Assembly (NCBI GenBank): GCA_963791765.1
Contig: CAWBTL010000005.1
Location: 302,235-366,234 of the forward strand
Direction of reading: 5' to 3'
Origin: an uncultured Alphaproteobacteria bacterium
GTDB lineage: Bacteria; Pseudomonadota; Alphaproteobacteria; Sphingomonadales; Sphingomonadaceae
DNA: 64,000 bases
Of this stretch, positions 20,178-64,000 are shown piece after piece; positions within the stretch are counted from its first letter, which is position 1; each line of letters starts with the position of its first letter. The translations under genes were made by a program, and so were the position numbers. Below the pieces are notes generated by a model. It saw only the letters and a program-made list of their open reading frames with translations. It searched no databases and had not been told where the DNA came from.

Positions 20178-20287
20178 CCTCGTCTCCTGTCGTTTTTCCA
20201 CGATTGTAATCAAGCATACTATTGGTTAGCGTCAGGGCTGTCAAAACGAATCCCGGCCTTCGGGGTCGAGGCGAGAGGACGCGGCGC

Positions 20288-27358: not shown

Positions 27359-28498
27359 TCATCTCAGAAATGCCCATCCCTTGTCCCCGCGAAGGCAAGC
27401 CTCATAAGCGTCGGGCTCAAGCGGCTGCAAGATGCCCGTCGTCACTTCGCCGTCGCAGTTGATGCGGCAGTGATGTTCGTTGAGGCCGCGCAGGTGCAGC
27501 CGGTTGGCGGGGTCAGACAGGTCGAAGCGATCGCCCTGGACCAGATTGTCGCCGACATAGTCGCCCTGCCAGATAGTCTTGTCGGGCGATCCGCCATAGA
27601 GGCCGCAGGTCATGTAGGCGGTCTGGTTGCCGATGCGTTCAAAGCACACGCGCTTCACTTCGCCGCCATCGAGCGTGTAATCGATTTCGCCTTCGAGGAA
27701 GATCCTGGTGTCCTCCTCGAAGCGCAACCGCCGTTCGACTTTCCTGACTTTGCCGTGGCCCGCGCGAGGGTCGCCGTGGCGGTAGAGCACGATCGGTCCC
27801 CAGATCGCGAAGTCCCGGAAGGCGAACCAGTTGCCGCCGATCCAGCCAGCCTTGGGAGGCTTGGCACCTTCCTGGAAGCGCGGGCCGCCGACACCGCGGC
27901 CGATGCCCCAGTGCCGGTCACGGGTGCCGCGTCCGGTCAGCGCAATGCGCGTCCCGTCGATCTCGACCCAGCCCTCGACTTCGCCAAAGCTTTCGAACCC
28001 CGCGGTGACGTGGCGCTGGCGACCATCGCTGAGCGGGCTGTAGGCCGAGCGGTACATCTGGCGGTGGGTATCGTGCCAAGAAAGGTCGAATGCGATGCCG
28101 TGATCGTTGGGCGCGAGCACATGCCGCCATTCGCGCATCCCGGCGATGATCGTCGGCTGGATCGGGCCGACATGGATATTGCCGCGATTGGCCCCGATCC
28201 GCCGGAAGGCGCGGACCGAAGTCTGCACGCCCTTCCAGGTGACGATGGCATAGGCTTCGGCGGTGTCGAGATTGGGATAGAAGCTGCCCCCGGTCGCGAT
28301 CAGCAGCTCGCCTGCCTCGTCGTGGAAGACATTCCAGTGGCGTTCGAAAAAGCGCGGGTTGGTGGAAGCGACCACCCGGATCGGGTTGGGGGTCTGGTGG
28401 ATCAGGTGATCGTCGAGCGGTGACAGCGGGGCCTGCGCGCCGAAATGCGCGTCCGCTTCGAAGGCCCAATCGCCCGTCATGCCTATGCCTTTCGTCAT
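27359..28498 (-). CDS. Conserved hypothetical protein, paralog of 20288-21496
   Basis: DDHLIHQTP...RFFERHW...YPNLD...GTRDRHWG; overlaps the P450 stop codon. Confidence 0.75.
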   Translation of the reverse strand: MTKGIGMTGDWAFEADAHFGAQAPLSPLDDHLIHQTPNPIRVVASTNPRFFERHWNVFHDEAGELLIATGGSFYPNLDTAEAYAIVTWKGVQTSVRAFRRIGANRGNIHVGPIQPTIIAGMREWRHVLAPNDHGIAFDLSWHDTHRQMYRSAYSPLSDGRQRHVTAGFESFGEVEGWVEIDGTRIALTGRGTRDRHWGIGRGVGGPRFQEGAKPPKAGWIGGNWFAFRDFAIWGPIVLYRHGDPRAGHGKVRKVERRLRFEEDTRIFLEGEIDYTLDGGEVKRVCFERIGNQTAYMTCGLYGGSPDKTIWQGDYVGDNLVQGDRFDLSDPANRLHLRGLNEHHCRINCDGEVTTGILQPLEPDAYEACLRGDKGWAFLR

Positions 28499-30375: not shown

Positions 30376-31872
30376 CTAATCCTGAAACCGGGCGAGCAGC
30401 ATGATCGACCCGTCCGCGTCGCCGCCCACCGCGATGCTGCCGTCTGCCAGCGCGGCAATGTCCGAGAAGGGCAGCAGCGGTCCCGGCATCAGCAGATCGA
30501 TACCCGGCAATGTGTTGATTTTCATTCCCGAGCTCGCGCCAACCGGAAGCTGCGTGGCGACAATTTCGGATGCGCCGTCCGCCAACCTGTGGAGCGATCC
30601 CGTGCCCCGATCCAGCACGAAGACCGCGCCGCCCGAAGAGGTCACACCGTGCGGCTCGACCAGCCCCTCGAGCATGGTCGCGACGTGGCCGTCCTTGATA
30701 TGCACGACCCGGCCCGCGCCCGCTTCGGATACGACCACGCTGCCATCGGCATGACAATGAACCCCGGTCGGCACGGACAGTCCGCTCGCCAGAACCTGCG
30801 TTTCTCCGCCCGCGCCGATGCTTAGCACGCGGCCCGCGCCCGCTTCGCACACCACGACATCGCCGGTGGCCGCCAGCGCCACGCCCATGGCGCGGTCAAG
30901 CCCTTCGAGCAGCGGGACGGCCTCTTCGCCCAGACGGTAGCGCGCGACCATGCCCGCGCTGTTGCTGGTGATATGGGCGCCGTCGGGCGCAACTGCGATG
31001 CCGCGCACATAACCGGGAAAGCCATGCTGCAGCAGCATAGCCGGTCGATGGACGCTGCCATCCTCGCCGATCTGCGCCAGGCTCATCCCGTCCGCCGCGA
31101 CCAGTGACCCGCCGGGGTCGGCGGCAAGACCGAACGGTCCAAGCATGCCGCCGCACACGGCCTGCCGGGTAGTGCCACCCGGCGAAACTTCAACCACCCC
31201 GCCGTCGGTGAAATGCGAGACGAACATCCGTCCGTCAGGCGCGAATTCGAAATTGTCGATCCCGAAGGCGAGGCGGGCGAATTCGGTCTTCCTGCCCGAT
31301 GCCAGGTCGAAATGGGTCACCGCGCCGCTGCCCGATTCGACGACAAACAACCGCCCGGCGGCATCGAATTTCACCGCAGTCGGGATGCTGAAATCCCCCG
31401 CCACCCGTTCTGCCGCTCCGCCGGCGACGGGAACCCGCCAGACCTCGTTCAGCGGCACCAGCGGGAAGTAGAGGCAATCGTCGGGGCCAAGGCACAGCGC
31501 GTTGGGCATCATCAACCCGCTGGCAATCACCCGCGGCGTTGCACCATCGGCGAACAGTTCGAGAATGCGGCCATCGGGGTTGAATTCGCTCATGAAGATG
31601 CGGTCACCGTGCACGGTGATGCCGTTGGCAACCGGGACATCGGCGGCGATCACATCGACTTTGCCGCCGGGCCGCCAGGCACTCACCCGCGCGCTCATCA
31701 CTTCGGTCGCATACATGGTGCCGTGGCTGTCGAAGGCGAGATCGTCGGGGGCGATGATGGGGCCGCCTGCCGGGCTGATGATTTCTGCCGCACCGCTCGC
31801 GACATCGACGGCGCTCACCTGTCCGCCAAATGCCTGCGCGACGTAGAGCCGCCCGTCGGGCCCCCAGCGCAT
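30376..31872 (-). CDS. SMP-30/gluconolactonase/NHL-type beta-propeller protein (true start probably about 80-100 nt further upstream)
   Basis: Repeated GPDG/PDDLAFD/ANGI/PNAL/PTAV/PFGLA/PTGV/PHGV blades; frame stays open upstream of the annotated ATG (WTLQTRAAPAALIGANG). Confidence 0.8.
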   Translation of the reverse strand: MRWGPDGRLYVAQAFGGQVSAVDVASGAAEIISPAGGPIIAPDDLAFDSHGTMYATEVMSARVSAWRPGGKVDVIAADVPVANGITVHGDRIFMSEFNPDGRILELFADGATPRVIASGLMMPNALCLGPDDCLYFPLVPLNEVWRVPVAGGAAERVAGDFSIPTAVKFDAAGRLFVVESGSGAVTHFDLASGRKTEFARLAFGIDNFEFAPDGRMFVSHFTDGGVVEVSPGGTTRQAVCGGMLGPFGLAADPGGSLVAADGMSLAQIGEDGSVHRPAMLLQHGFPGYVRGIAVAPDGAHITSNSAGMVARYRLGEEAVPLLEGLDRAMGVALAATGDVVVCEAGAGRVLSIGAGGETQVLASGLSVPTGVHCHADGSVVVSEAGAGRVVHIKDGHVATMLEGLVEPHGVTSSGGAVFVLDRGTGSLHRLADGASEIVATQLPVGASSGMKINTLPGIDLLMPGPLLPFSDIAALADGSIAVGGDADGSIMLLARFQD

Positions 31873-34880: not shown

Positions 34881-35050
34881 GGGCTGGCCCTGGCTGGATG
34901 AAATGTGCGAGCAATCACTCGCATAACCGATCCTATCGCTTGACCGGAGTTCAAGTCAAGCAGCTTGACAGGCAGATGCCAGCATATACAAATGCGAGGG
35001 TTAGCTCGCTTATTTCAGCGGCGGGTGATCCTTGGCAGTGGTGGGAAAGC

Positions 35051-36673
35051 ATGTCGGCAGAGCATTACGACGCGGTGATCATCGGGGCCGGTTTCGGCGG
35101 CCTGCGGGCGCTTTACGAGCTCCGCGAAATGGGGCTTTCGGTGCGGGGGATCGAAGCCGCATCCGACATCGGCGGCACCTGGTACTGGAACCGCTACCCC
35201 GGCGCGCGGACTGACAGCGAGGCCTGGGTCTATTGCTATGCCTTCTCCAAGGAAGTGCTCGAAGAGTACGACTGGCCCGAGCGCATGCCCAATTGGGAGC
35301 ATGTGCTCGATTACCTCGATTTCGTCGCGAAGAAGTTCGATCTCAGGAAAGACTTCCAGTTCGACACCCGCGTCAGGTCTGCGGTCTATGACCAGGAGGC
35401 CAATCGCTGGACCATCACCAGCGAGGCCGGTGAGGCTTTCACCTGCATCTATTTCGTCGCTGCCAGCGGCCTGCTGTCGGTTCCGGTCGATCCGCCATAC
35501 CCCGGCAAGGAGCGGTTTCAGGGCGAAACCTACATGTCGATGCGCTGGCCGCACACGCCTGTCGACTTTGCCGGCAAGCGGGTCGGCATAGTCGGCAGCG
35601 GATCGACCGCTGTGCAGATGCTGCCGATCATCGCCCAGACCGCGGCGCAGGTCACCATGTTCCAGCGCACGCCGAACTATGTGATGCCGGGGCGCAATTA
35701 TCCGCTCGACGATGCCACCCGGGCGGGGATCAAGGGCGATTACGACGCGATCTGGCAGCAGGTGCGCAACCACGTGTTTGCCTTCCCGATGGATTACACC
35801 GGTCGCGATTTCGATGGGATGACGCCCGCACAGATCCACGCGGCGTTTGATGGCGCCTGGGAGGATGGCGGCTTTCGCTACATCTTCCGCGCCTTCGACG
35901 ATCTGCTGGTCAACCCGCGCTCCAATGCCGCTGCGGCGGAGTTTTTCCGGGGCAAGGTGCGCGCGATCGTCAAGGACCCGGAAGTGGCGGAACTGCTATG
36001 CCCCGACTATCCGATCGCGCTCAAGCGGCCGCCGCTCGGCAATTTCTATTATGAGGCGTTCAATCGCCCCAATGTGAAGCTGGTCGATGTCCGCACCAAC
36101 CCGGTGCAGGAAATCACCGAAACCGGCCTGCGCACCGGCAACACCGAATACGAATTCGACATCCTGATTTTCGCCATGGGCTTCGATGCGATGACCGGGT
36201 CGCTCACCCACATGGACGTGCGCGGGCTGGACAATGTTTCCATCGCCGAGAAATGGGCGCCGGGCGCGCGCACCAATTTCGGGCTGACGATTGACGGGTT
36301 TCCGAACTTCTTCATGGTCTCGGGGCCGCAAACCCCCTTCGCCAATGTTCCGCCGCTGGTGGAAAGCGCGTCGCAGTGGATCGGCAAGGCGATTGCCCAT
36401 GCCAGGGCCTCGGGCAGCGATTATTTCGAGGCGACGCCGGATGCGGTGCAAGCCTGGGTCGACAAGATCCAGATGCTGCTGGACGCGACTTTGCTGGGCG
36501 GGGCAACCGAACTGCATTCATGGTTCATGGGCGCGAACATCCCCGGCAAGGCACATGCGCCGCTGTTTTACTTCGGCGGGGCAACCGCCTATTTCGACGA
36601 ATTGCAGCATTCCATGGACTCCGGCTTTCCCGGATTCACCACCAAGCCCGCGCGGGCGAGGGAACTGGCGTAA
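35051..36673 (+). CDS. Baeyer-Villiger monooxygenase (type I)
   Basis: GAGFGG, GGTWYWNRYPGARTD, GSGSTAVQ and FQRTPNY motifs; fingerprint reads FQGETYMSMRWP. Confidence 0.93.
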   Translation: MSAEHYDAVIIGAGFGGLRALYELREMGLSVRGIEAASDIGGTWYWNRYPGARTDSEAWVYCYAFSKEVLEEYDWPERMPNWEHVLDYLDFVAKKFDLRKDFQFDTRVRSAVYDQEANRWTITSEAGEAFTCIYFVAASGLLSVPVDPPYPGKERFQGETYMSMRWPHTPVDFAGKRVGIVGSGSTAVQMLPIIAQTAAQVTMFQRTPNYVMPGRNYPLDDATRAGIKGDYDAIWQQVRNHVFAFPMDYTGRDFDGMTPAQIHAAFDGAWEDGGFRYIFRAFDDLLVNPRSNAAAAEFFRGKVRAIVKDPEVAELLCPDYPIALKRPPLGNFYYEAFNRPNVKLVDVRTNPVQEITETGLRTGNTEYEFDILIFAMGFDAMTGSLTHMDVRGLDNVSIAEKWAPGARTNFGLTIDGFPNFFMVSGPQTPFANVPPLVESASQWIGKAIAHARASGSDYFEATPDAVQAWVDKIQMLLDATLLGGATELHSWFMGANIPGKAHAPLFYFGGATAYFDELQHSMDSGFPGFTTKPARARELA

Positions 36674-48125: not shown

Positions 48126-49687
48126 TGAACAGCTTTGCTTTCCTTGAGAAATCGGCGCGGCAGTGGCCCGATACGGTGGCGCTGCTGCAGGGCGAGGAGA
48201 GCTACACCTACGCCGAATTCCGCGATCGGGCGCTGGCGGTGGGGGGCAATCTCCGCGCGCTGGGCTGCGAGCCGGGTGACCGCGTGGCCTTCTGCCTCGC
48301 CAACTCGCCGCGGATGATGGAAGTTATCTTCGGCTGCTTCGCGGCGGGACTGGTGGTGGTTCCGGTCAACGCGCGGCTGCATGCGCGCGAAATGGCCTAT
48401 ATTATCGGCAACTGCGGCGCGAAGGTCCTGATCCATGGGCCGGAGTTTGCTCAAGGCATCGCCGCCCATGCCGATCTGTTCGGCGGGCTGGCGCACCACA
48501 TATCGAGCCGACGATTTCGGGCTCACTGCTCAATCCCGCCAATGCCCTCGCCTGCGCGGTCGATGCCGCACCTGAGGACATCTGCTGGCTGTTCTACACC
48601 TCCGGCACCACCGGCAAGCCCAAGGGCGCGATCTGGAACCACCGGATGGTCGCGCGAGTGATCATGAATTACCTCGCCGATCTGCATAATATCCAGCCCG
48701 GCGAGATGGTGTTGCACTGCGCGCCGATGTCACACGGCAGCGGCATCGTCGCGCTGCCGGCGGTGGCGCGCGGGGCGACCAATGCGATCACCGAGAGCGC
48801 CAGCTTCGATGTCGATCATTTGCTCGGCGGCTGTCGAGCGGCTCAAGGTCTCGCATATTGCCTTCATGGCCCCGACCCAGATCATCAAGCTGCTCGAGGA
48901 TCATATGCCGGGCCGCTACGATCTCTCCAGCCTTCAGGCGATCTGCTATGGCGGCGCGCCGATCTATGTCGATCAGCTCAAGCAGGCGATGGCCATGTTC
49001 GGGCCGGTGTTTGTCCAGCTCTACGGTCAGGGTGAGGCACCGATCACGATCACCGGGCTGACGGCGGCGGCGCACCGGACGCTGCTCGATGCTGACGATC
49101 CCCGGATTGGCTCGGCCGGGCAGGTGCGCACCGACGTGGAGGCGCACTGCGTTGACGGGGATGACAACCCGTTGCCCGCTGGCAAGGCGGGCGAAGTCGT
49201 CGTGCGCGGCGATGTCGTGATGCCCGGCTACTGGAACGACCCCGAGGCGAGCGCCGAGGCGCTGCGCGGCGGCTGGCTGCACACCGGGGACATCGGCTAT
49301 TTTGACGATCAGGGCTATCTGTTCCTGCTCGACCGCGCCAAGGACATGGTGATCAGCGGCGGCAACAATGTCTATCCGCGCGAAGTGGAGGAAGTCATCA
49401 TTCTCCATCCCCAGGTGGCCGCTTGCGTGGTGTTCGGCATTCCCGACGACTATTGGGGCGAGGCCGTTCATGCGGTGGTCGTCGCCAAGCCCGGCGCAGA
49501 ACTCTCCGCCGCAGAAATCATCGCCTTTTGCGGGGAGCATATGGCGGGGTACAAGAAGCCCAAGGCAGTCGATTTCGTCGATGAGCTGCCGGTGAGCGGC
49601 TATGGCAAGGTGCTGCGCCGCGAGGTGCGTGAGGCCTATTGGGCCGGGCACGAAACCCGCATCGGTGGTGGAAGGGCTTCAGCATGA
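48125..49687 (+). CDS. Acyl-CoA synthetase with apparent frameshifts (about 48500-48560 and about 48830)
   Basis: FYTSGTTGKPKG, YGQGE, HTGDIG, DRAKDMVISGG and GYGKVLRR motifs over three frames. Confidence 0.88.
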
Positions 49688-51263: not shown

Positions 51264-52071
51264 ATGACCTACGAAACCATCCTGCTTGATCGCCCGGCCC
51301 CCGGAGTCGCGATGATCACGCTCAACCGCCCGGATCGCGGCAACGGGGTGGTGCCCGAAATGGCGCGCGATCTGCTCGCGGCGCTCGAAGCCCTGGAGGC
51401 CGACAAGTCGGTGCGCGTGCTGGTGCTGACCGGGGCCGGCAAGCAGTTCTGCGCCGGGGCGGATCTTGTGCGAGTTCCAGAAATATCTCGCCGAGGATCA
51501 TGCGCGCGAGCAGGAGCCCTACAACGCCCGCGTGCTGTGGCCGGTGACGCAGCGGTTGGTTTCATGCCGCCTGCCGGTGGTGGCTGCAATCAACGGCGGC
51601 GCTACCGCAGGGGGCCTCGATCTGGCGCTGGCCTGCGACATCCGCATTGCCTCGACCAGGGCGAAAATGGGCGAGACCTACATCAAGCTGGGCCTCAATC
51701 CCGGCAATGGCGGCACGTATTTCCTGCCGCGCCTGGTTGGCAGCGGGATGGCGGCGGAGCTGGCGCTGACGGGCGATCTGGTCGATGCCGAACGTGCCCT
51801 GGCGATCGGTCTGGTCAACAGCATCGCCGAGCCTGACGCGCTGATCGCAACCGCAGTGGCACTGGCTGCGCGGATCGCCGAGCGGCCCCGGCTCGCCATA
51901 GAGGCAACCAAGCAGCAGCTTCGCCAGAGCTGGCACATGGATCTGGCCGGATCGATGAACGCCAGTTTCTGGGCCGTCGCGGCGCTGACCTACAGCGACG
52001 ATCTGCGCGAAGGCGTGGCCGCTGCGCTGGAGAAGCGCGATCCGGTTTACAACAAGGGTGATTTGGGGTGA
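51264..52071 (+). CDS. Enoyl-CoA hydratase/isomerase family protein with apparent frameshift near 51470
   Basis: LNRPDRGN and FCAGADL in one frame; AINGGATAGG.DLALACDIR in another. Confidence 0.87.
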
Positions 52072-53099
52072 TCATCGACGCTGTCGTCCACCCATGGAAC
52101 ATGTCGCCCGAAAACCAGAATCCGGCGGCGCAGGCGCAGATCGATGCAGTCTATGCCTCGCACCGGCTCTCCTACGACGAGGCGCACGCCGACTACATCC
52201 TGCAGCCGCATGAATTTTTCCGCGACCTGAGCTTCGATGTGATCGCACGCGCGGAATTTGTCGAAAGCCCGGTGGATTTCGCGATCCTGCATTCGCTCCC
52301 CAATCTCGGCTTCGGGCTTGGACACATTACCCTGCCGGAGAAATGCGCCGCGTTCAGGGATCGCTTCCCGCATCGCTGCAAGATGCTCGGCACTGTCGGC
52401 ACGCCGGTTGCGGCCACGGCCATCGAGGAGATCACCCGCCAGCATGGCGAGCTCGGGATTGACGGGGTCAAGCTCTATCCCGCGTTCTTCTATGACGGCA
52501 AGGGCGAGGGCTGGCGGATGGACGGCGAGGATTGGGCGACGCCCTTCCTGGAGGCATGCCGCAAGCTGGGGCTGACGCGGATCGCGATCCACAAGGCGCT
52601 CTGGCTCGAACCTGCGCCGAAGTCGGCCTTTGGTATTGACGATATGGGTCCGCCGCTCGACCGCTATCCGGACATGACCTTCGAGATGGTGCACGGCGGC
52701 GCGGCGTTTCTCGACGAGACGATCGCCCTGATGCAGCGCCATCCCAACCTTTATCTTACGTTGGAGACGACCTTCTCCTACGTCCTCACCCGCCCGCGGG
52801 TGTTTGCCAAGGTGCTGGGCAAGCTGGTCAGCGAAGTGGGATCGGAGCACCTGCTGTTCGCCAGCGGCAACAACCTGGCGCACCCACGGCCGCTGATCGA
52901 GGCGTTCGATGGCTATCAGTTTCCCGAGGCGCTTCAGCAGGAGTTTGGCATCCGCCCGCTGACGCACCAGGATCGCGCCAATATCATGGGGCTGAACGCC
53001 GCCCGCCTCTATGGCTTCGACCAGCAGCCCATCGACGACCTCTTCTCCCGCGCGCGCGCTGCCGGGGTTCCGGGGCCGTGGAGTGCGATCCGGCCATGA
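52068..53099 (+). CDS. Amidohydrolase_2-fold protein
   Basis: IIDAVVH, GVKLYP, IHK, FEMVHGG, LYLTLE and GLNAARLY motifs. Confidence 0.85.
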   Translation: MIIDAVVHPWNMSPENQNPAAQAQIDAVYASHRLSYDEAHADYILQPHEFFRDLSFDVIARAEFVESPVDFAILHSLPNLGFGLGHITLPEKCAAFRDRFPHRCKMLGTVGTPVAATAIEEITRQHGELGIDGVKLYPAFFYDGKGEGWRMDGEDWATPFLEACRKLGLTRIAIHKALWLEPAPKSAFGIDDMGPPLDRYPDMTFEMVHGGAAFLDETIALMQRHPNLYLTLETTFSYVLTRPRVFAKVLGKLVSEVGSEHLLFASGNNLAHPRPLIEAFDGYQFPEALQQEFGIRPLTHQDRANIMGLNAARLYGFDQQPIDDLFSRARAAGVPGPWSAIRP

Positions 53100-53395
53100 C
53101 CGATCCTGCGCTGATCGCCCGCATCGAGGCGGCACTCACCCGGGTCACCGAGCCGTGCAGCATCGCCTTTGGCAGGCCGATCAGCATCGTCGAAATGGGG
53201 CTGGTCGAGGGGATCGAGGTTTTGGACGGTCATGCCGAAGTCACCCTCTGCCTCACCGACGCGGCCTGTGTTCATTTCGCGGGAATGCAGCGTTTCATCC
53301 GCGACGAGCTGCTCACGCTGCCCGAAATCCATTCGGTCGAAGTCCGGCAAACGCTCGACCAGCTGTGGACGCCGGACCGGCGGCGGGTGGCATGA
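53096..53395 (+). CDS. DUF59/MIP18 (SufT/PaaD-like) protein
   Basis: EPCS...SIVEMGLV...LT...C...WTPDR pattern. Confidence 0.82.
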   Translation: MTDPALIARIEAALTRVTEPCSIAFGRPISIVEMGLVEGIEVLDGHAEVTLCLTDAACVHFAGMQRFIRDELLTLPEIHSVEVRQTLDQLWTPDRRRVA

Positions 53396-54565
53396 ACCTC
53401 GGCCAGACTCTTCCCGGACTCAAGGTGCTCGACCTGAGCACCAATATCGCCGGGCCGTTCGCGGCGATGATCCTCGGCGACATGGGCGCGGATGTGATCA
53501 AGATCGAGCGCCCCCCGCATGGCGACGATACACGCGCACTGCCGCCACAGTTCGAGAGCCAGGCGACTGTCTTCCTCGCCGTTAACCGCGGCAAGCGCAG
53601 CCTGCTGCTGGATATCAAGTCGCCGGAAGGCAAGGAGGCGCTGCTGCGGCTGGTCGAAAGTGCCGATGTGGTGATCGAAAGCTTTCCGCCCGGCCTGGGT
53701 GAGAAGCTGGGCATCACTTTCGAGGCGCTGAAGGCGCGCAACCCGCGTATCCTCATGGCCTCGATATCGGCGTTCGGCGATGGCCCGATAGGCCGGACCA
53801 TGCCAGGCTACGATGCGCTGGTGCAGGCGGTGAGCGGGATGATGAGCTTCACCGGCTCGCCCGGCACGCCCACCGTCCGGCTTGCGCCTTCGGTGCTCGA
53901 TCTCACCACCGGCATGTGGGCGGCGATGGGGCTGCTGGCGGCAGTGATGCGGCGAAATGCCGGGGGAGGGGCCGAGCATGTCCGCCCCAGCCTGATCGAT
54001 TCAGCCTTCACGCTGATGAATCACCAGCTGCTCGGCATGCTTGCGACCGGCCAGCCCCCCGAAAAGCTTGGCTCGGGCGCGCCCAGTGCGGCTCCCTACG
54101 GGGTCTTCCGGACCGCCGATGGCGAAATCATGATTGCCACCGCGAGCGAGCCCCAGTTCCCGCGGCTGTGTGCAGCGCTGGGTCTGGAGGAAGTGGCGGC
54201 CGATCCCCGCTTCGGGGCGATGGCGGACCGGCTGGCCAACCGCGGGCCGCTCGATCGGGCCATCGCGGCTGTTATCGCCGGGCAATCGACCGATCATTGG
54301 CTCGGTCATCTGGGCCATGCGGGGATATCCTGCGGGCGGGTCAACGATCTCGCCGAAGCCCTGGTGCTGCCGGTGGTAGCCGAGCGCGGACTGCTTGAAC
54401 TCGATGCAGCTGCGCCTGCCAATCGAGCCGCCGGGTCAGCCGGCCCGGAGACCGGCTCCCGCGTTGGGCGAACATTCGCAAGAAGTGCTGCAGCAGGCCG
54501 GATTCGATGCACAAGAAATCGCACGGCTGGGTTTCGACCAGGCGACTGGCCTTCTGAGGGGGTAA
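53392..54565 (+). CDS. CaiB/BaiF family III CoA-transferase with apparent frameshift near 54410
   Basis: DLSTNIAGPF, DMGADVIKIE.P..GD, NRGKRS, GYD and VLD motifs; PAPALGEHS.EVL C-terminus continues in another frame to TAA 54563-54565. Confidence 0.88.
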
Positions 54566-54581
54566 AGCTAAGGCTGACATC

Positions 54582-55256
54582 ATGGCAAGACAGACGAAGA
54601 AAATAGCCGAACCGACGACTTTGATTGGCAAGCGCCGGTCTGCCGCAGGGATCGATTCCCGCGAATCCTATGCAATCCGGCGACAGGAAATTGCCGAGGC
54701 CGCTGTCCGCGTGTTCAACCGGCTGGGTTACAAGGGCGCCAGCCTGAGCGCCGTGGCCAGCGAGCTGGGCGTCGACCGCGCCACGCTTTATTACTACTTC
54801 TCGTCGAAGGAGCAGATGTTCGACGAAACCGTGCGCGCGGTGATCGAGGGCAATGACGAGCTGGTCCGGCGCATCGCCGCCAGCGCGATCAGCCCCAACC
54901 GCAAGTTGCGCGAACTGATCACTTCGATGATGGTATCCTACGCCGCGAATTATCCGCTGCTGTACATCTACATCCGCGAGGACCTGAGCCACGTCAGCGA
55001 CAAACGCTCGACCTGGTCCGCGGAAATGCGCGCGCTCAACCGCAGCATCGAGAAATCGTTCATCGGCATCATCGAACAGGGCTATGCCGACGGCAGCTTC
55101 CGCCGGGTCGGGTCTGCCCGCACGGTAGCTTACGGCATTCTCGGCATGCTCAACTGGAGCCACCGCTGGTTCAAACCCGGCCAGGCAGAATCCGCCGACG
55201 AGATCGGCAAGGTGTTCGCCGAAATGGTGCTCTCCGGGCTGGAAACGCCCTATTGA
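54582..55256 (+). CDS. TetR family regulator
   Basis: GYKGASLSAVASELGVDRATLYYYFSSKE HTH; GMLNWSHRWF C-terminus. Confidence 0.93.
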   Translation: MARQTKKIAEPTTLIGKRRSAAGIDSRESYAIRRQEIAEAAVRVFNRLGYKGASLSAVASELGVDRATLYYYFSSKEQMFDETVRAVIEGNDELVRRIAASAISPNRKLRELITSMMVSYAANYPLLYIYIREDLSHVSDKRSTWSAEMRALNRSIEKSFIGIIEQGYADGSFRRVGSARTVAYGILGMLNWSHRWFKPGQAESADEIGKVFAEMVLSGLETPY

Positions 55257-56487: not shown

Positions 56488-58104
56488 TCAGCTATTGGCC
56501 GTCCGCTCCGTGCCGAGCAGCACGAAGCCTTCATATCCCTTTGCCGCCGTCTTCTCCAGGATCCGGCGATAGCCGCGTACACCTCCCGAGTAGGGCATGA
56601 AGACCTGCGGCTTCCCCGGCATTTCCGCTCCGAGATAGTAGGACGGCGTCAAGGGGTAGAGCGTCTCCAGCGCGCGTTCGTTGACATGCGCGACCCAGTC
56701 CCGCTCTGCTTCGGCGGTGACTTCGATCTCGGAGACACCCTGGCTGCGGGCGAATTCGAACAGCCCTGCCAGCCAGTCGATCTGCTCCTCCGATGACAGC
56801 AGCACATTGCTCAGCAGCGAGGGACTACCCGGTCCGACGATGATGAACATGTTCGGAAAGCCGTGGACGCCAATGCCCAGATAGCTGACCGGCCCGGCCG
56901 ACCACTTGTCCCGCAGCGTCAGGCCGCCGCGCCCGGCAATTTCGGGCTTGAGCAGCGACCCGGTGAAGGCATCGAACCCGGTCGCGTAAATGATGACATC
57001 CAGCGGGATTTCCCCCGCCGACGTGCGAATTCCGCCCGGCGTGATCGCCTCGATCGGGGTTGCGCTGATATCGACCAGAGAAACATTGGCGCGGTTGAAG
57101 GTGGCGAAATAGCCGCTGTCGACCGAGGGACGGCGGGTGCCGAAGGGAAAGCCCTTCGGCGTCAATTTCTCCAGGACCACCGGATCGTCGACCTGCTCGG
57201 CGATCTTGGCGCGGATGAATTCGGCTGCGGTCTCGTTCGAGCGGAGGTCGAGCAGGATGTCCTTGAAGGTCAGCGCGAAACCGAAGCCAAGCCGGTTCCA
57301 CGAAGCCTCGAAGGCGGCGCGTCGCTCGTCTTCGGGAACGTCGGTGGCCGATCGCGTGTCGGGCACGAAGCCCAGGCCGCTGGGCGAATTGCGCGCCGCT
57401 TCGCGCCGTTCGGCATAGTTCGCCTTCACCTCGCGGTCTTCCTCGTCGGAGACCGGGGCATTGGCGGCGGGGATCGAGAAGTTGGCGGTTCGCTGGAACA
57501 CCGAAAGATGCGACGCGACCGCAGCGACTACCGGTGTCATCTGCACGCCGGACGATCCGGTGCCGATGATGCCCACGCGCTTGCCGGCAAGTTCGACGTG
57601 GTCCTTCGGCCAGCGCGCGCTGTAAACAATGCGCCCGGCGAAGCTATCCTGCCCGGGATAGACGGTGTCCTTGGGCGCGGACAGCTGCCCCATCGCCAGG
57701 ATCAGCTTGCCAGCTTGCCAGCGCCGCCCATCCTCAACCTCGACATCCCAGACAGCATGCGCCTCGTCATAGCTTGCGCGCGTCACCCGCGTGTTCAGCT
57801 CGATATCGCGGCGCAGGTCGAAGCGGTCGACGACATGGGCGATATAGCGCAGAATTTCGGGCTGGGTGGCGTAGCGTTCGCTCCAGCGCCACTCCTGCTC
57901 CAGCTCGGGCGAGAACCGGTAGGAATAATCGAAGCTTTCGACATCGCAGCGCGCGCCGGGATAGCGGTTGAAATTCCACACCCCTCCCACGTCATCGTCC
58001 GCTTCCAGCACAGCGACCGACATTCCCATCGACCGCAGCGTGTGGAGCGCGCGCAGCCCCGCAAATCCGGCACCGATCACAACAGCATCTACTTGCGCAG
58101 CCAT
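56488..58104 (-). CDS. Baeyer-Villiger monooxygenase (PAMO/STMO-like)
   Basis: GAGFAG, GGVWNFNRYPGARCD, GTGSSGVQ, FQRTANF and YATGFD motifs; fingerprint reads FAGRIVYSARWP. Confidence 0.93.
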   Translation of the reverse strand: MAAQVDAVVIGAGFAGLRALHTLRSMGMSVAVLEADDDVGGVWNFNRYPGARCDVESFDYSYRFSPELEQEWRWSERYATQPEILRYIAHVVDRFDLRRDIELNTRVTRASYDEAHAVWDVEVEDGRRWQAGKLILAMGQLSAPKDTVYPGQDSFAGRIVYSARWPKDHVELAGKRVGIIGTGSSGVQMTPVVAAVASHLSVFQRTANFSIPAANAPVSDEEDREVKANYAERREAARNSPSGLGFVPDTRSATDVPEDERRAAFEASWNRLGFGFALTFKDILLDLRSNETAAEFIRAKIAEQVDDPVVLEKLTPKGFPFGTRRPSVDSGYFATFNRANVSLVDISATPIEAITPGGIRTSAGEIPLDVIIYATGFDAFTGSLLKPEIAGRGGLTLRDKWSAGPVSYLGIGVHGFPNMFIIVGPGSPSLLSNVLLSSEEQIDWLAGLFEFARSQGVSEIEVTAEAERDWVAHVNERALETLYPLTPSYYLGAEMPGKPQVFMPYSGGVRGYRRILEKTAAKGYEGFVLLGTERTANS

Positions 58105-58153
58105 GGGACTCCTATCCTTCGCTGCCGCCGATTTGTCACACGCGGCGACAATC

Positions 58154-58171
58154 GTCAACGCAGTCGTGGAA
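58154..58171. promoter_or_regulatory. Operator-like 18-mer GTCAACGCAGTCGTGGAA
   Basis: Reverse complement with flank (TTCCACGACTGCGTTGACGAT) matches 61985-62005 (TTCCACGATGGTGTTGACGAT). Confidence 0.65.
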
Positions 58172-58225
58172 AATTTGCGTAGCAGCATTGACGCATGATC
58201 CGCGCCTTGGGTAATCTTTGGGCAC

Positions 58226-58999
58226 ATGACCGGGCAATTCGCACCTCCGTCGCGTAAAATCGCCATCGTTACCGGGGCTGCACGGGGCATTGGCGCTGCC
58301 ATTGCGCGCCGATTGGCGCAGGATGGCCATGACGTCGCGGTGGTCGATCTCAAGCTCGATGCCTGCGCGGATACTGTCGCCGCCGTCGAGGCGCTCGGCC
58401 AGCGCAGCGTGGCGATCGCTGCCGATGTGTCGGACGAAGCGGCGGTGCGGCGCGGGGTGGCCGAGGTGGTGGGTGCTCTGGGAGCGCCGACGGTGCTGGT
58501 CAACAATGCCGGCATCCTGCGCGATCGCACCCTGGCCAGGCTCACTCTTGAAGACTGGGAAACCGTCATCGACGTCAATCTGCGCTCGGTTTTCCTGATG
58601 TGCCGCGAAGTGCAGGCTCACATGCGGGCGGCGCGCTGGGGCCGGATCGTGAACCTTTCCAGCATCGCCGCGCTCGGCGTGTTCGGAGAGGCCAATTATG
58701 CCGCGGCCAAGGCCGGGATCCAGGGCTTCACCAAAACCATCGCCATCGAACTGGGCCAATACGGGATCACCGCCAATGTCGTGGCGCCGGGCTTCGTGGT
58801 CACCGACATGACCCGCGAAGTGGCGGAGCGGATGAAGGTGAGCATGGAAGAGATGACCGAGCAGATGCTGCGCGACATTCACGTCGGACGCCCCGGCGCG
58901 CCCGACGACATCGCCAACGCCGTGGCTTTTTTCGCGGATGAGCGGTCCGGTTTCGTTACCGGGCAAGTGCTCTACGTCGCGGGAGCGCCGCGCGGATGA
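58226..58999 (+). CDS. SDR oxidoreductase (FabG-like)
   Basis: TGAARGIG, NNAGILRD, NYAAAKAG and ANVVAPG motifs. Confidence 0.93.
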   Translation: MTGQFAPPSRKIAIVTGAARGIGAAIARRLAQDGHDVAVVDLKLDACADTVAAVEALGQRSVAIAADVSDEAAVRRGVAEVVGALGAPTVLVNNAGILRDRTLARLTLEDWETVIDVNLRSVFLMCREVQAHMRAARWGRIVNLSSIAALGVFGEANYAAAKAGIQGFTKTIAIELGQYGITANVVAPGFVVTDMTREVAERMKVSMEEMTEQMLRDIHVGRPGAPDDIANAVAFFADERSGFVTGQVLYVAGAPRG

Positions 59000-62072: not shown

Positions 62073-63176
62073 ATGATCGACGGGCTTTTCGTGCTTGATG
62101 CGGTGGCGCATGCCTACAACCATCTTCCCACCAACTGGGAAGATCCGGTGCTGGGCGAAGCGATGGTCGATCTCGCCTATGCCCTCGCCGCCGATCCGCC
62201 CGATCCGCAATACGCGATGAGCCGCCGCGATTACCTGCGCGACTGGACGGTGGACGATGCCGCCAATCTGCTGTTCGGTGAAAGCCAGACCGATATCGCC
62301 GTGGTCCACCCGCTGGCAATCTCCTCGTTCAAGGATGGCTATTCGTCGGTCGCCAAAGCAGTCGAGGCGACGTCGAAATATCCCTCGCGGTTCATCGGTG
62401 CCTATGTCTGCGTCGATCCGCTCAAGGGTGCCGATGCGATCCGGTCGATGGACGAGCAGGTCGAACTCTACAGACCGCTTGGGCTCAAGCTTTACCCCAC
62501 CAGCTGGGATGGCAAGGGCCCGGTATCCTGGCGCATGGACGATCCCAAGCTGATCTATCCGCTCTATGAGCATGCCGCCAAGCTTGGTCTCAAGCATGTC
62601 GCGGTCCACAAGGCCGTGCCGATCGGGCCGTTTGCCGTCGGCAATGCCTACAACCCCAGCGATATCGAAAATGCCGCAACCGACTTTCCCGATCTGACCT
62701 TCGAGATCGTCCATGGCGGCCTCGCGTTTCTGGAGGAAACGGCGTGGCTGCTGGGGCGGTTCGGCAACATCCAGATCAACATGGAAATCCAGAACATCAT
62801 CGTCGAACGGCGGCCGCGGGTGTTCGCCCAGATCTTGCTCGGGCTGTGCAAGGTGGGCGGAACCGGCATGCTCGACCGGCTGTTCTGGGGTTCGGGCGGA
62901 ACGCTCCACCATCCGCAACCGGGCCTGGAGGCCTTCGCCAAGTTCGAATTCCCCGAGGATATGCTCGAGAATGCCGGGCTGTTCATGCCGATGAAGCAGA
63001 TCACCCGGGCCAACAAGGAGAACATGCTGAGCGGCACCTTTGCCAGGTCGCATGGCATCGACCTCGAAGCCTGCAAGCGCGCGATTGTCGGCGACCAGTT
63101 CAGCCTGCCGGAAGGCGCGGCGCTGCCCGCGCCCTATTCGACCATCGCCATGGGCGAGCAGCTCACCCATGCCTGA
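62073..63176 (+). CDS. Amidohydrolase_2-fold protein (paralog of 52068-53099)
   Basis: LDAVAH, GLKLYP, VHKA, FEIVHGG and INME motifs; ATG after a GGAG RBS. Confidence 0.85.
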   Translation: MIDGLFVLDAVAHAYNHLPTNWEDPVLGEAMVDLAYALAADPPDPQYAMSRRDYLRDWTVDDAANLLFGESQTDIAVVHPLAISSFKDGYSSVAKAVEATSKYPSRFIGAYVCVDPLKGADAIRSMDEQVELYRPLGLKLYPTSWDGKGPVSWRMDDPKLIYPLYEHAAKLGLKHVAVHKAVPIGPFAVGNAYNPSDIENAATDFPDLTFEIVHGGLAFLEETAWLLGRFGNIQINMEIQNIIVERRPRVFAQILLGLCKVGGTGMLDRLFWGSGGTLHHPQPGLEAFAKFEFPEDMLENAGLFMPMKQITRANKENMLSGTFARSHGIDLEACKRAIVGDQFSLPEGAALPAPYSTIAMGEQLTHA

Positions 63177-63516
63177 TACGCGTGCCGCCATCGTCGCCCA
63201 GCTGGACGAGATCAAGGATCCGTGCAGCGTGGCAAGCGGCGTGCCGATGGGGCTCGCGGAAATGGGCCTGGTCGATACCATCGATATTTCACCCGCCGGT
63301 GATGTTGCCATCCGGCTGCGGCTGACCTCGCCGTTTTGCCACATGATCGGCTTTTTCAAGACCGAGGTTCAGCGCCGGGTCTCGGCCTTGCCGGGAGTGT
63401 CCAGCGTCTCGCTCAGCGCCGATAACGGGCTTGACTGGTCGCCGGACCGGATCTCCGCACCCGCACAGGCGCGCCGCGCCGCCCATCTGCAAGACATGGA
63501 AGCCAGACTGGCCTGA
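63169..63516 (+). CDS. DUF59/MIP18-like protein (paralog of 53096-53395)
   Basis: DPCS...EMGLV...LTSPFC...WSPDR pattern. Confidence 0.82.
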   Translation: MPDTRAAIVAQLDEIKDPCSVASGVPMGLAEMGLVDTIDISPAGDVAIRLRLTSPFCHMIGFFKTEVQRRVSALPGVSSVSLSADNGLDWSPDRISAPAQARRAAHLQDMEARLA

Positions 63517-63525
63517 AGGAACCGG

Positions 63526-64000
63526 ATGATGAGTGGACGCCTCGCAGGAAAAGTCGCGGTGGTTACCGGCGCGGGTTCGGGCATGGGCCGGGCGATGGTC
63601 CGCCAGTTCTGCGCGCAGGGGGCGAAAGTGCTCGCCGCCGATGTCTCGGGCAAGCAGGACGATCTGCCGGCGGAACTGGGCGCTGCCTGCATCGCCACCC
63701 ATGCCGATGTCTCCAAAAGCGCCGATGTCCGCGCGATGCTCGATCTTGCCGTGGAGCACTTCGGGCGGCTCGATGTGCTGTGCAACAATGCCGGCATCCA
63801 GGGTCAGATCGCCCCGACCGCCGAGCATGACGACGACGCCTTCGACGAAGTGATCGCGGTCAACCTGCGCGGGGTGTTCCTCGGCATGAAATACGCGATC
63901 CCGCTGATGCTGCGCACCGGCGGCGGATCGATCGTCAACACCTCGTCGATGGCCTCGCTGGTCGCTTTCACCGGGATGCCAGGATACTCGGCGTCAAAGG
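63526..64000 (+). CDS. SDR oxidoreductase, 3' truncated by window edge
   Basis: MMSGRLAGKVAVVTGAGSGMG...LCNNAGI; frame open to the end of the window. Confidence 0.88.
   Translation, partial: MMSGRLAGKVAVVTGAGSGMGRAMVRQFCAQGAKVLAADVSGKQDDLPAELGAACIATHADVSKSADVRAMLDLAVEHFGRLDVLCNNAGIQGQIAPTAEHDDDAFDEVIAVNLRGVFLGMKYAIPLMLRTGGGSIVNTSSMASLVAFTGMPGYSASK

What the first reader, a model, noticed from the sequence alone, without database searches (positions are those of the whole stretch)
62073..63176. Both amidohydrolase-fold proteins have altered metal/catalytic motifs
Seen: strand-1 motif is DAVVH / DAVAH instead of DxHxH. The strand-8 motif is FASGN / WGSGG instead of the usual GSD. The His residues in HK and HGG are retained. 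Known: the strand-1 HxH and strand-8 Asp ligate metal or act as catalytic base in this superfamily. Inference: the same two substitutions in two divergent paralogs suggest a distinct subfamily with non-canonical chemistry or cofactor, not random decay.
Basis: partly seen in the sequence, partly recalled or inferred. Interest (0 to 1): 0.6.

Follow-up and report, generated by a model that had tools for sequence, protein, structure and literature searches.

The report
Rewired amidohydrolase-fold enzymes with DUF59 partners
Two genes in a bacterial catabolic island encode TIM-barrel "amidohydrolase" proteins that lack two textbook active-site residues but carry conserved replacement residues on neighbouring strands, and each is welded to a small two-cysteine DUF59 gene, marking an old, uncharacterised enzyme subfamily, not broken genes.

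Summary
Both Amidohydro_2 genes (52068-53099 and 62073-63176) have Val where the first strand-1 His should be, and Gly where the strand-8 Asp should be. The strand-5 HK and strand-6 HGG motifs are kept.

This is not decay. dN/dS is 0.06-0.10, and the same state occurs in 289 of 311 relatives across several phyla.

The two changes mark one ancient clade ("class III"). The window's two copies sit in different sub-branches of it, so they share the state by descent.

Class III also gained His79, Glu238 and His280. An acid at 238 (strand 7) and an acid at 275 (strand 8) never co-occur, and they switched together three times. This points to a re-plumbed site, not a lost one. I could not measure 3-D proximity.

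The DUF59 link is broader than the substitutions. Canonical cousins beside propane monooxygenase genes are DUF59-paired too, but there the DUF59 reads DPE. In the His-less classes it reads DPC.

Class III fails both defining motifs of the dinuclear oxygenase (ARO) branch. No member is characterised and the reaction is unknown.

This scan already followed up the gene pair on this same window (e1-5257215).

The parts
62073..63176 (+). Amidohydro_2 paralog B (367 aa), class III. Key residues: D9 62097-62099, V11 62103-62105 (canonical first His), H13 62109-62111, H79 62307-62309, K139 62487-62489, H179/K180 62607-62612, H214 62712-62714, E238 62784-62786, G275 62895-62897 (canonical Asp), H280 62910-62912
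   Evidence: AF2 model pLDDT 87.9, pTM 0.89; VIA Z 24.9 to 3irs and 21-22 to DHBD/LigW/gamma-RSD
63169..63516 (+). DUF59 (FeS_assembly_P) partner of B, 115 aa. Its ATG overlaps the stop of B by 8 nt (ATGCCTGA). Invariant Cys19 (DPCS) and Cys57 (TSPFC)
52068..53099 (+). Amidohydro_2 paralog A (343 aa), class III. Key residues: D4, V6 (52083-52085), H8, H75, K135, H175/K176, H209, E233 (52764-52766), G267 (52866-52868), H272
53096..53395 (+). DUF59 partner of A, 99 aa. ATGA overlap with the stop of A. Motifs EPCS and LTDAAC
   Evidence: (orthologous 99-aa gene in L090)
51264..52071 (+). Enoyl-CoA hydratase gene directly upstream of A, overlapping A's start in orthologous operons. In the window it is split by a 1-nt insertion near 51470
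53400..54606 (+). Family III CoA-transferase/racemase-type gene directly downstream of DUF59-A. This order is conserved in Novosphingobium and Steroidobacteraceae operons
63526..64000 (+). SDR gene directly downstream of DUF59-B (cut by the window end). An SDR is the commonest downstream neighbour of the pair

Best explanation
Both genes encode functional members of an ancient subclade ('class III') of a DUF59-coupled branch of the Amidohydro_2 (PF04909) family. In this subclade the catalytic face of the barrel has been re-plumbed, not lost. The strand-1 first His and the strand-8 Asp are gone. Three residues found only in this subclade are conserved instead: a His just after strand 2 (B His79), a Glu just after strand 7 (B Glu238) and a His in the strand-8 loop (B His280). 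The shared residues remain: strand-1 His13, strand-4 Lys139/Tyr141, strand-5 His179-Lys180 and strand-6 His214. I read this as a carboxylate and a His ligand hopping to neighbouring strands. On that reading the pocket still binds a metal, or at least still does acid/base catalysis, but with a different geometry and therefore a different substrate or reaction from ACMSD/LigW/LigI-type enzymes. The protein is made together with a translationally coupled two-cysteine DUF59 protein, which most likely acts as a subunit or dedicated metal-handling partner. In this genome the two pairs serve two operons of a CoA-dependent alicyclic, isoprenoid or steroid-like catabolic island. My best guess for the chemistry is a non-redox hydrolytic or lyase step (ring or ester hydrolysis, decarboxylation or hydration) on a carboxylate or CoA-linked intermediate. 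Shown: clade membership, residue conservation and covariation, purifying selection, gene coupling and context. Inferred: spatial proximity of the new residues, metal binding, physical association with DUF59, and the reaction.
For: Three residue classes appear among 65 full-length 50%-identity representatives. Class I has H/Q/E11, no H79, small residue at 238, D275. Class II has V11, E275. Class III has V/T/I11, H79, E238, G275, H280. On the tree, class III is a 99% clade and class I lies on one side of a 95% branch; A and B sit in different sub-branches. An acid at 238 and an acid at 275 never co-occur and are never both absent in intact sequences: 289 versus 18 of 311, 0 with both, and 4 with neither, of which 2 are truncated and 2 degenerate. 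Two revertants inside class III (P0264, P0313) swapped Glu238->Ser and Gly275->Asp together, giving 3 of 3 independent contrasts in opposite directions. hhalign confirms the column equivalences. The secondary structure of the confident AF2 model puts H13, H79, Y141, H179, H214 and E238 at or within two residues after the C-terminal ends of strands 1, 2, 4, 5, 6 and 7, and H280 in the strand-8 loop. That is the catalytic face in this superfamily (established knowledge). dN/dS is 0.06-0.10 for A and B and 0.17-0.23 for the DUF59 genes. A DUF59 ORF lies directly downstream on the same strand in 73 of 75 evaluable loci from Sphingomonadales, Actinomycetota, Rhizobiales, Paraburkholderia, Steroidobacteraceae and others. 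Start/stop overlaps are 8 nt in 21 and 4 nt in 7 of 37 loci examined. The DUF59 partners have invariant Cys19 and Cys57. Context: the order ACAD-TetR-MaoC-Ltp-DUF35-ligase-thiolase-ECH-A-DUF59-CoA_transf_3 is conserved in L090 and L092. The order B-DUF59-SDR-MaoC-DUF35-thiolase with a BVMO nearby is seen in L005. An SDR is the commonest downstream neighbour (25 loci) and an alpha/beta hydrolase the next (14 loci).
Against: No coordinates were available, so I did not measure whether His79, Glu238 and His280 point into the pocket. With only three independent 238/275 switches the sign test cannot reach significance (p 0.25). No member of class I, II or III is biochemically characterised in the literature I could search. 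Metal content and reaction are therefore unknown. Contexts differ between lineages: CoA beta-oxidation-like operons, gentisate-like cupin plus FAA hydrolase clusters, and POR/TPP clusters. No single substrate fits all of them. The island already has a gluconolactonase-like beta-propeller (30376-31872) that could be the lactonase after the BVMOs. That weakens the lactone-hydrolase guess.
Confidence: 0.6

Rival explanations
1. Metal-independent acid/base enzyme. As in LigI and the COG3618 lactonases, the barrel works without a metal. His13, His179, His214, Glu238 and Lys139 act as general acid/base and oxyanion-stabilising groups, and the loss of two metal ligands simply reflects that no metal is needed.
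For: Two of the four canonical mononuclear ligands are missing. Structural similarity to the COG3618 lactonase 4dlf (Z 21.2) and to LigI (Z 18.9) is comparable to that to the decarboxylases. SDR and BVMO genes are frequent neighbours, as they are for dehydrogenase-lactonase pairs (my knowledge of LigC/LigI and fucose dehydrogenase/lactonase).
Against: The known metal-free members keep HxH and Asp (my knowledge). Class III carries five conserved His plus Glu on the catalytic face, which is more typical of metal sites. It does not explain the obligate two-Cys DUF59 partner.
Confidence: 0.2
2. Redox enzyme with a DUF59 electron or metal partner. The rewired site holds Fe and/or Mn. The two-Cys DUF59 carries or delivers a metal or Fe-S centre, making an oxygenase/oxidase analogous to the amidohydrolase-related dinuclear oxygenases (AROs) that work with Rieske ferredoxins.
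For: PF04909 is already known to include dinuclear Fe/Mn oxygenases with an alternative ligand set (AibH2, SfbO, PtmU3, and the diterpenoid hydroxylase DitZ; PMC13154177). The model matches SfbO/TruffO/DitZ at Z 18.4-19.8. DUF59 proteins are tied to Fe and Fe-S handling: weak NCBIfam hits to SufT and PaaD. Canonical cousins sit in di-iron propane monooxygenase operons (PMC4428276). The DUF59 motif switches from DPE to DPC on the same branch where the barrel loses His11.
Against: Both ARO-defining motifs are absent in all 326 family sequences checked: strand-1 D-x-H is not at the right position, and there is no C-terminal D-x-P-H-x-D/E. No reductase or ferredoxin gene is consistently adjacent. 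The DPE/DPC switch is a single phylogenetic event.
Confidence: 0.15
3. Non-catalytic pair. The barrel and DUF59 act as a maturation factor or metallochaperone for other metalloenzymes of the pathway (P450, Rieske, BVMO-independent steps), as has been suspected for accessory genes of prm/mim operons.
For: Class I cousins lie between prmD and the GroEL-like chaperonin that is needed for monooxygenase maturation. DUF59 family members are assembly factors.
Against: The Mim-cluster amidohydrolase-like protein makes up about 3.2% of the proteome in acetone- or 2-hydroxyisobutyrate-grown cells (PMC7176365), which looks like an enzyme. Class III loci have no shared metalloenzyme client. According to the SDIMO review read (PMC11825192, citing Furuya 2013), MimABCD was expressed actively in E. 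coli with codon optimisation and co-expressed chaperone proteins. That review names no amidohydrolase or DUF59 gene, and I did not read the primary paper.
Confidence: 0.08
4. Decayed or pseudo-enzyme copies that merely lost catalytic residues.
For: Loss of two textbook residues. Several neighbouring genes in the window carry 1-nt insertions.
Against: dN/dS is 0.06-0.10. There are no indels in A relative to its ortholog and both frames are intact. The state is fixed across phyla and comes with gains of conserved residues.
Confidence: 0.02

Closest known systems
The 'metal-dependent hydrolase / amidohydrolase' plus 'metal-sulfur cluster biosynthetic enzyme' (DUF59) gene pair downstream of prmABCD/mimABCD in Actinomycetes (PMC4428276, PMC6849523, PMC7176365)
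   Same: Same branch of PF04909 (hhalign probability 100%, E 3.9e-76). Same adjacency and strand for the DUF59 gene. Shared strand-4 Lys, strand-5 His-Lys and strand-6 His.
   Different: These class I proteins keep the D-x-H-x-H and strand-8 Asp positions and lack His79 and Glu238; some variants have lost the second His. Their DUF59 is longer (235 aa in L007) and reads DPE, not DPC. They sit in di-iron monooxygenase operons, which the window lacks among the ORFs scanned. Their function is also unknown.
ACMSD-type decarboxylases and hydratases of PF04909 (2,3-DHBD, LigW, gamma-resorcylate decarboxylase, ACMSD, IDCase, LigJ, LigY)
   Same: Same fold (VIA Z 18.6-21.9, rmsd 3.1-4.1 A over 260-280 residues). 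Strand-5 and strand-6 His are present.
   Different: Two of their four metal ligands (strand-1 first His/Glu and strand-8 Asp) are absent. Sequence identity is 10-16%. They have no DUF59 partner.
LigI / COG3618 lactonases (metal-independent members)
   Same: Same fold (Z 18.4-21.2). Frequent SDR neighbours.
   Different: They retain HxH and Asp (my knowledge), which class III lacks. They have no DUF59 partner.
Amidohydrolase-related dinuclear oxygenases (AROs: AibH2, SfbO, PtmU3, DitZ)
   Same: They are a precedent that a PF04909 barrel with an alternative ligand set does different chemistry with a dedicated small partner protein. They include a His ligand from the strand-8 loop and a role in terpenoid catabolism (DitZ). 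Z 18.4-19.8.
   Different: Neither ARO motif is present: no D-x-H on strand 1 and no D-x-P-H-x-D/E. The partner is a DUF59 protein, not a Rieske ferredoxin.
BB4693 of Bordetella bronchiseptica (PDB 3irs/3k4w), uncharacterised TIM-barrel protein
   Same: Closest solved structure (Z 24.9, rmsd 3.1 A over 274 residues) and the only clear PDB sequence match (E 4.6e-9). It has Asp aligned with Glu238.
   Different: 19% identity. The strand-5 His-Lys is not aligned to His-Lys in BB4693. Its function is unknown.

Membership tests
Pfam PF04909 Amidohydro_2 (fold-level family) | Score above the Pfam gathering threshold | tested here: met
   A scores 92.7 bits and B 50.9 bits against a cut-off of 26.4
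Pfam PF04909 Amidohydro_2 (fold-level family) | (beta/alpha)8 barrel superposable on solved members | tested here: met
   AF2 model pLDDT 87.9; Z 18-25 to more than 40 PF04909 structures
Canonical mononuclear Amidohydro_2 enzymes (ACMSD/LigW/gamma-RSD/LigJ type) | Strand-1 HxH (or ExH) metal ligands | tested here: not met
   The first position is Val (A V6, B V11); only the second His is kept
Canonical mononuclear Amidohydro_2 enzymes (ACMSD/LigW/gamma-RSD/LigJ type) | Strand-8 Asp (ligand or catalytic base) | tested here: not met
   Gly at the aligned column (A G267, B G275)
Canonical mononuclear Amidohydro_2 enzymes (ACMSD/LigW/gamma-RSD/LigJ type) | Strand-5 His ligand and strand-6 His | tested here: met
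   H179 and H214 in B, H175 and H209 in A; invariant or nearly invariant
Amidohydrolase-related dinuclear oxygenases (ARO) | Strand-1 D-x-H motif binding M1 | tested here: not met
   Class III has D-x-V-x-H. A D.H in the first 30 residues occurs in 8 of 326 sequences: the four class I sequences with a strand-1 D-x-H-x-H (P0315, P0354, P0367, P0384) and four others where it lies off the strand-1 motif
Amidohydrolase-related dinuclear oxygenases (ARO) | C-terminal D-x-P-H-x-D/E loop binding M2 | tested here: not met
   0 of 326 family sequences carry it; the motif definition is from PMC13154177
Amidohydrolase-related dinuclear oxygenases (ARO) | Genomic association with a Rieske ferredoxin | tested here: inconclusive
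   No Rieske ferredoxin was among the recurrent neighbour clusters that I annotated. Not all clusters were annotated. A Rieske oxygenase alpha subunit lies 12-23 kb away in the window
DUF59-coupled amidohydrolase pair (prm/mim-operon type) | DUF59 (PF01883) gene adjacent on the same strand | tested here: met
   Both window copies; 73 of 75 class III loci; class I loci
DUF59-coupled amidohydrolase pair (prm/mim-operon type) | Location downstream of soluble di-iron monooxygenase genes with ADH and GroEL | tested here: not met
   No Phenol_Hydrox or MmoB genes were found among the window ORFs scanned with Pfam. The class III loci L001-L005, L090 and L092 lack them too

The most novel reading that the evidence does not exclude
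The barrel and its two-cysteine DUF59 form an obligate heteromeric metalloenzyme. In it the DUF59 Cys pair (Cys19 and Cys57) took over part of the metal site when the barrel lost its first strand-1 His, either as a shared inter-subunit site or as a relayed metal or Fe-S centre. That would be a third cofactor architecture in PF04909, beside the mononuclear hydrolase/decarboxylase site and the ARO dinuclear site. It could support redox or otherwise non-hydrolytic chemistry in terpenoid or steroid catabolism.
Probability: 0.15. Interest if true: 0.8.

Novelty: new variant of a known kind. Interest (0 to 1): 0.55.

Why it matters
PF04909 proteins are routinely annotated as "metal-dependent hydrolases". 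The ARO work (PMC13154177) showed that a different ligand set in this fold meant entirely different chemistry for about 17,000 misannotated genes.

The clade described here is a further ligand set with a clear, testable signature: V/T/I at the first-His position, His79, Glu238, Gly275 and His280, plus a DPCS/TSPxC DUF59 partner. It spans at least about 50 clusters at 50% identity across Proteobacteria, Actinomycetota and others.

It also offers a natural example of catalytic residues hopping between barrel strands, with natural revertants to test it against. It ties the long-unexplained amidohydrolase plus DUF59 genes of propane/acetone monooxygenase operons to a wider family. A defined function would fill an unassigned step in CoA-dependent alicyclic, steroid-like and aromatic degradation operons.

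Tried and rejected
1. Complex prediction of B with its DUF59 and a Zn ion returned "no answer". It is evidence neither for nor against binding.

2. Natural fusions as Rosetta-stone evidence.
- L060 has one ORF with both domains. Its translation shows out-of-frame Arg-rich stretches at the N-terminus and at the junction, so it is a frameshift artefact of a MAG.
- P0272 (MFS + barrel + DUF59) is equally doubtful.
- The "longer" search found nothing else.
- I therefore do not use fusions as evidence.

3. ARO membership was considered because SfbO, TruffO and DitZ appeared among the fold matches. It is rejected on both defining motifs.

4. Single-sequence PDB searches found nothing for A and only 3irs for B.

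5. NCBIfam has no model for either barrel.

6. Literature searches for amidohydrolase with DUF59, and for PF04909 with PF01883, found no functional study.

7. The cholate-induced "amidohydrolase" EGO55_16305 of Caenibius tardaugens (PMC12882949) could not be linked to this family. No DUF59 neighbour is described there.

8. I could not obtain model coordinates, so active-site distances were not measured.

9. The 27 of 251 Actinomycetes tally includes two unpublished genomes (G026, G032). Their loci (L113, L117) were left out of all residue tables.
Full report
**What is there**

They are 33% identical over their full length.

Each is followed by a small PF01883 (DUF59, FeS_assembly_P) gene.
- The DUF59 gene after B starts at 63169 and overlaps B's stop by 8 nt (ATGCCTGA).
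- The DUF59 gene after A starts at 53096 with an ATGA overlap.

**Checking the motifs**

Two independent alignments fix the equivalences:
- hhalign of a 48-sequence class III profile against canonical relatives (probability 100%, E 3.9e-76);
- a profile alignment to LigW, in which the Asp of "AMDYPY" falls on B Gly275.

The first His of HxH corresponds to Val (B V11, A V6). The second His is kept (H13, H8). The strand-8 Asp corresponds to the Gly that is the fourth residue of both motifs (B G275, A G267). The strand-5 His-Lys and strand-6 His are kept.

**Not decay**

- Against orthologs at 90-92% protein identity (dS 0.5-1.0), dN/dS is 0.07-0.10 for B and 0.06 for A. It is 0.17-0.23 for the two DUF59 genes.
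- A has no indel relative to its ortholog, whereas several neighbouring genes do.

**A clade, not a coincidence**

An exhaustive profile search of 1.84 billion cluster representatives found 2,102 clusters at E<=1e-3 and 195 at E<=1e-30. In the 65 full-length representatives I tabulated the key columns, using B numbering.

| Class | Position 11 | Position 79 | Position 238 | Position 275 | Position 280 | Count |
|---|---|---|---|---|---|---|
| I | H/Q/E | no His | small residue | Asp | variable | 8 |
| II | Val | usually Gln | Ala/Ser | Glu | mostly His | 8, plus 2 revertants |
| III | V/T/I | His | Glu | Gly (rarely Ala/Thr) | His | 47 |

On a maximum-likelihood tree:
- class III, with the two revertants inside it, is a 99% clade;
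- class I lies on one side of a 95% branch;
- class II is the neighbour of class III;
- A groups with P0250 and B with P0243, in different starred sub-branches.

The paralogs are therefore old, and they share the substitutions by descent, not by independent events.

**Compensation**

- Across 311 family sequences, an acid at 238 and an acid at 275 are mutually exclusive. 289 have only 238, 18 have only 275 and none has both. The 4 with neither are 2 truncated and 2 degenerate sequences.
- Two sequences nested inside class III (P0264, P0313) have Ser238 together with Asp275. This gives three independent switches, all reciprocal. Three pairs cannot reach significance (p 0.25).
- His79 and a polar ligand at position 11 also never co-occur.
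- In the confident AF2 model (pLDDT 87.9, pTM 0.89), H13, H79, Y141, H179, H214 and E238 sit at or within two residues after the C-terminal ends of strands 1, 2, 4, 5, 6 and 7. H280 sits in the strand-8 loop. That is the catalytic face of amidohydrolase barrels (established knowledge).

I infer that the carboxylate hopped from strand 8 to strand 7, and that a His was recruited from strand 2 and/or the strand-8 loop. I could not obtain coordinates, so spatial proximity is inference and was not measured.

**The DUF59 link**

- In 79 loci from one-per-species genomes, 75 have room downstream of the barrel gene. 73 of those carry a DUF59 ORF directly downstream on the same strand.
- The two exceptions are L043 (barrel-DUF59-barrel) and one copy in L046.
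- The start codon overlaps the barrel's stop by 8 nt in 21 and by 4 nt in 7 of 37 loci examined.
- The partners have invariant Pro18, Cys19, Ser20, Ala22, Gly33, Cys57 and Trp90. This gives the motif DPCS...TSPxC.

The link is not confined to the substituted clade.
- P0354, a class I protein with DTHLHFWD and GSDY, lies in MimR-prmA-prmB-prmC-prmD-barrel-DUF59-ADH-GroEL.
- This is the pair described but never explained downstream of propane/acetone monooxygenase genes (PMC4428276, PMC6849523).
- The barrel protein there makes up about 3.2% of the proteome in acetone- or 2-hydroxyisobutyrate-grown cells (PMC7176365).
- 27 of 251 sampled Actinomycetes genomes carry a class I or II gene. That count includes two unpublished genomes, whose loci I excluded from the residue tables.

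Cross-tabulating the barrel state against the partner motif across about 100 loci gives a clean pattern.

| Barrel class | DUF59 motif | Loci |
|---|---|---|
| I | DPE(L)D and LPTxFC | about 20 |
| II | DPCC | 4 |
| III | [DE]PC[SAG] | about 75 |

So the DUF59 Glu-to-Cys change coincides with the barrel's loss of His11. This is one phylogenetic event and therefore only suggestive. From my memory of the TM0487 DUF59 structure paper, which I did not check here, the DPE Glu and the conserved Cys lie together on the surface. If so, class II and III partners would present a Cys pair.

**Fold neighbours**

- The closest solved structure is the uncharacterised BB4693 (3irs; Z 24.9).
- Next come the 2,3-DHB, LigW and gamma-resorcylate decarboxylases (Z 21-22), COG3618 lactonases (21.2), LigJ, LigI and ACMSD (about 19), and the dinuclear oxygenases DitZ, SfbO and TruffO (18.4-19.8).
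- The ARO family is defined by a strand-1 D-x-H and a C-terminal D-x-P-H-x-D/E (PMC13154177). None of 326 family sequences has the C-terminal motif, and class III has D-x-V-x-H. So this is not an ARO.
- AROs are still a precedent that an alternative ligand set in this fold signals different chemistry with a dedicated small partner.

**Context**

The window from about 18.9 kb to its end is a catabolic island. It holds two P450s, two BVMOs, several SDRs, acyl-CoA ligases, ACAD, MaoC hydratases, Ltp-like thiolase with DUF35, thiolase, enoyl-CoA hydratases, a Rieske oxygenase, APH-like kinases, TetR regulators and a TonB receptor.

- The A operon order, ACAD-TetR-MaoC-Ltp-DUF35-ligase-thiolase-ECH-A-DUF59-CoA_transf_3, is conserved in a Novosphingobium MAG and in Steroidobacteraceae.
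- B-DUF59-SDR is followed in Sphingomonas sp. 1P06PA by MaoC, DUF35 and thiolase genes, with a BVMO next to them.
- Actinomycete class III loci instead have CoA_transf_3, MaoC, aldehyde dehydrogenase, an acetyl-CoA hydrolase-type gene, isochorismatase, metallo-beta-lactamase and POR genes.
- Paraburkholderia and rhizobial loci have an alpha/beta hydrolase, a cupin and an FAA hydrolase.
- Class III is rare. It was found in 5 of 200 other sampled Sphingomonadales genomes and in none of the 9 sampled from the same genus. Only this genome among those with a match had two copies.

**Verdict**

But the substitutions are a shared ancestral state, the site appears rewired and not emptied, and DUF59 pairing predates the rewiring.

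The most likely mechanism (about 0.6 for the general statement) is a functional enzyme whose carboxylate and His groups have moved to neighbouring strands. It works with a two-Cys DUF59 subunit on carboxylate or CoA-linked catabolic intermediates, probably in a non-redox hydrolytic or lyase step. Metal content, partner binding and the reaction are all untested.

The gene pair on this same window was already followed up in this scan (e1-5257215). My tests agree with that report on the tight pairing and the prm-operon cousin. They add the three-class residue analysis, the 238/275 exclusivity and the exclusion of ARO membership.

Noticed in passing
window 44593, 47023, 47611, 48508-48825, 51470, 54395: Compared with the orthologous intact operon in L090, the window has single-base insertions in the ACAD, Ltp-like thiolase, AMP-ligase (several), enoyl-CoA hydratase and CoA-transferase genes. 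These split their reading frames. The amidohydrolase A gene has none. Either assembly indel errors or real pseudogenisation of neighbours.
   Followed up: partly
L107-L112, L121, L122 and L103, L104, L119 (class I loci in Actinomycetes): Some prm-type class I barrels read D-x-H-x-A or D-x-H-x-G on strand 1. They have lost the SECOND His while keeping the first and the strand-8 Asp, which is the opposite of class II/III.
   Followed up: no
L087:6080-8323 and L115, L116, L118: Class II barrels (V11, Glu275) have the DUF59 gene (DPCC motif) directly UPSTREAM, not downstream. In L087 an FGE-sulfatase-family gene precedes it.
   Followed up: partly
contig of P0331 (no DNA held): A class I relative with Q-x-H on strand 1 has no DUF59 neighbour. 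It is followed by a Haem_oxygenas_2 (heme-oxygenase-like di-iron family) gene.
   Followed up: no
PDB 3irs, alignment: The closest solved structure, uncharacterised BB4693, has an Asp ('SPDM') aligned with the class III strand-7 Glu238. An acid at this position may therefore predate class III in a wider group.
   Followed up: no
L043:4360-7113: A Solirubrobacteraceae MAG has a tandem arrangement: barrel, DUF59, then a second barrel. One DUF59 gene sits between two class III paralogs.
   Followed up: no
window 30376-31872 (-): A 498-aa protein with SMP-30/gluconolactonase-like and virginiamycin B lyase-like beta-propeller matches lies in the same island as two BVMOs (34898-36673 and 56488-58578). 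It is an alternative candidate for the lactone-opening step.
   Followed up: no
window 20222-21496 (+) and 27359-28498 (-): Two roughly 380-420-aa ORFs beside the two P450 genes have coding-like GC3 but no Pfam match at E<=1e-5.
   Followed up: no
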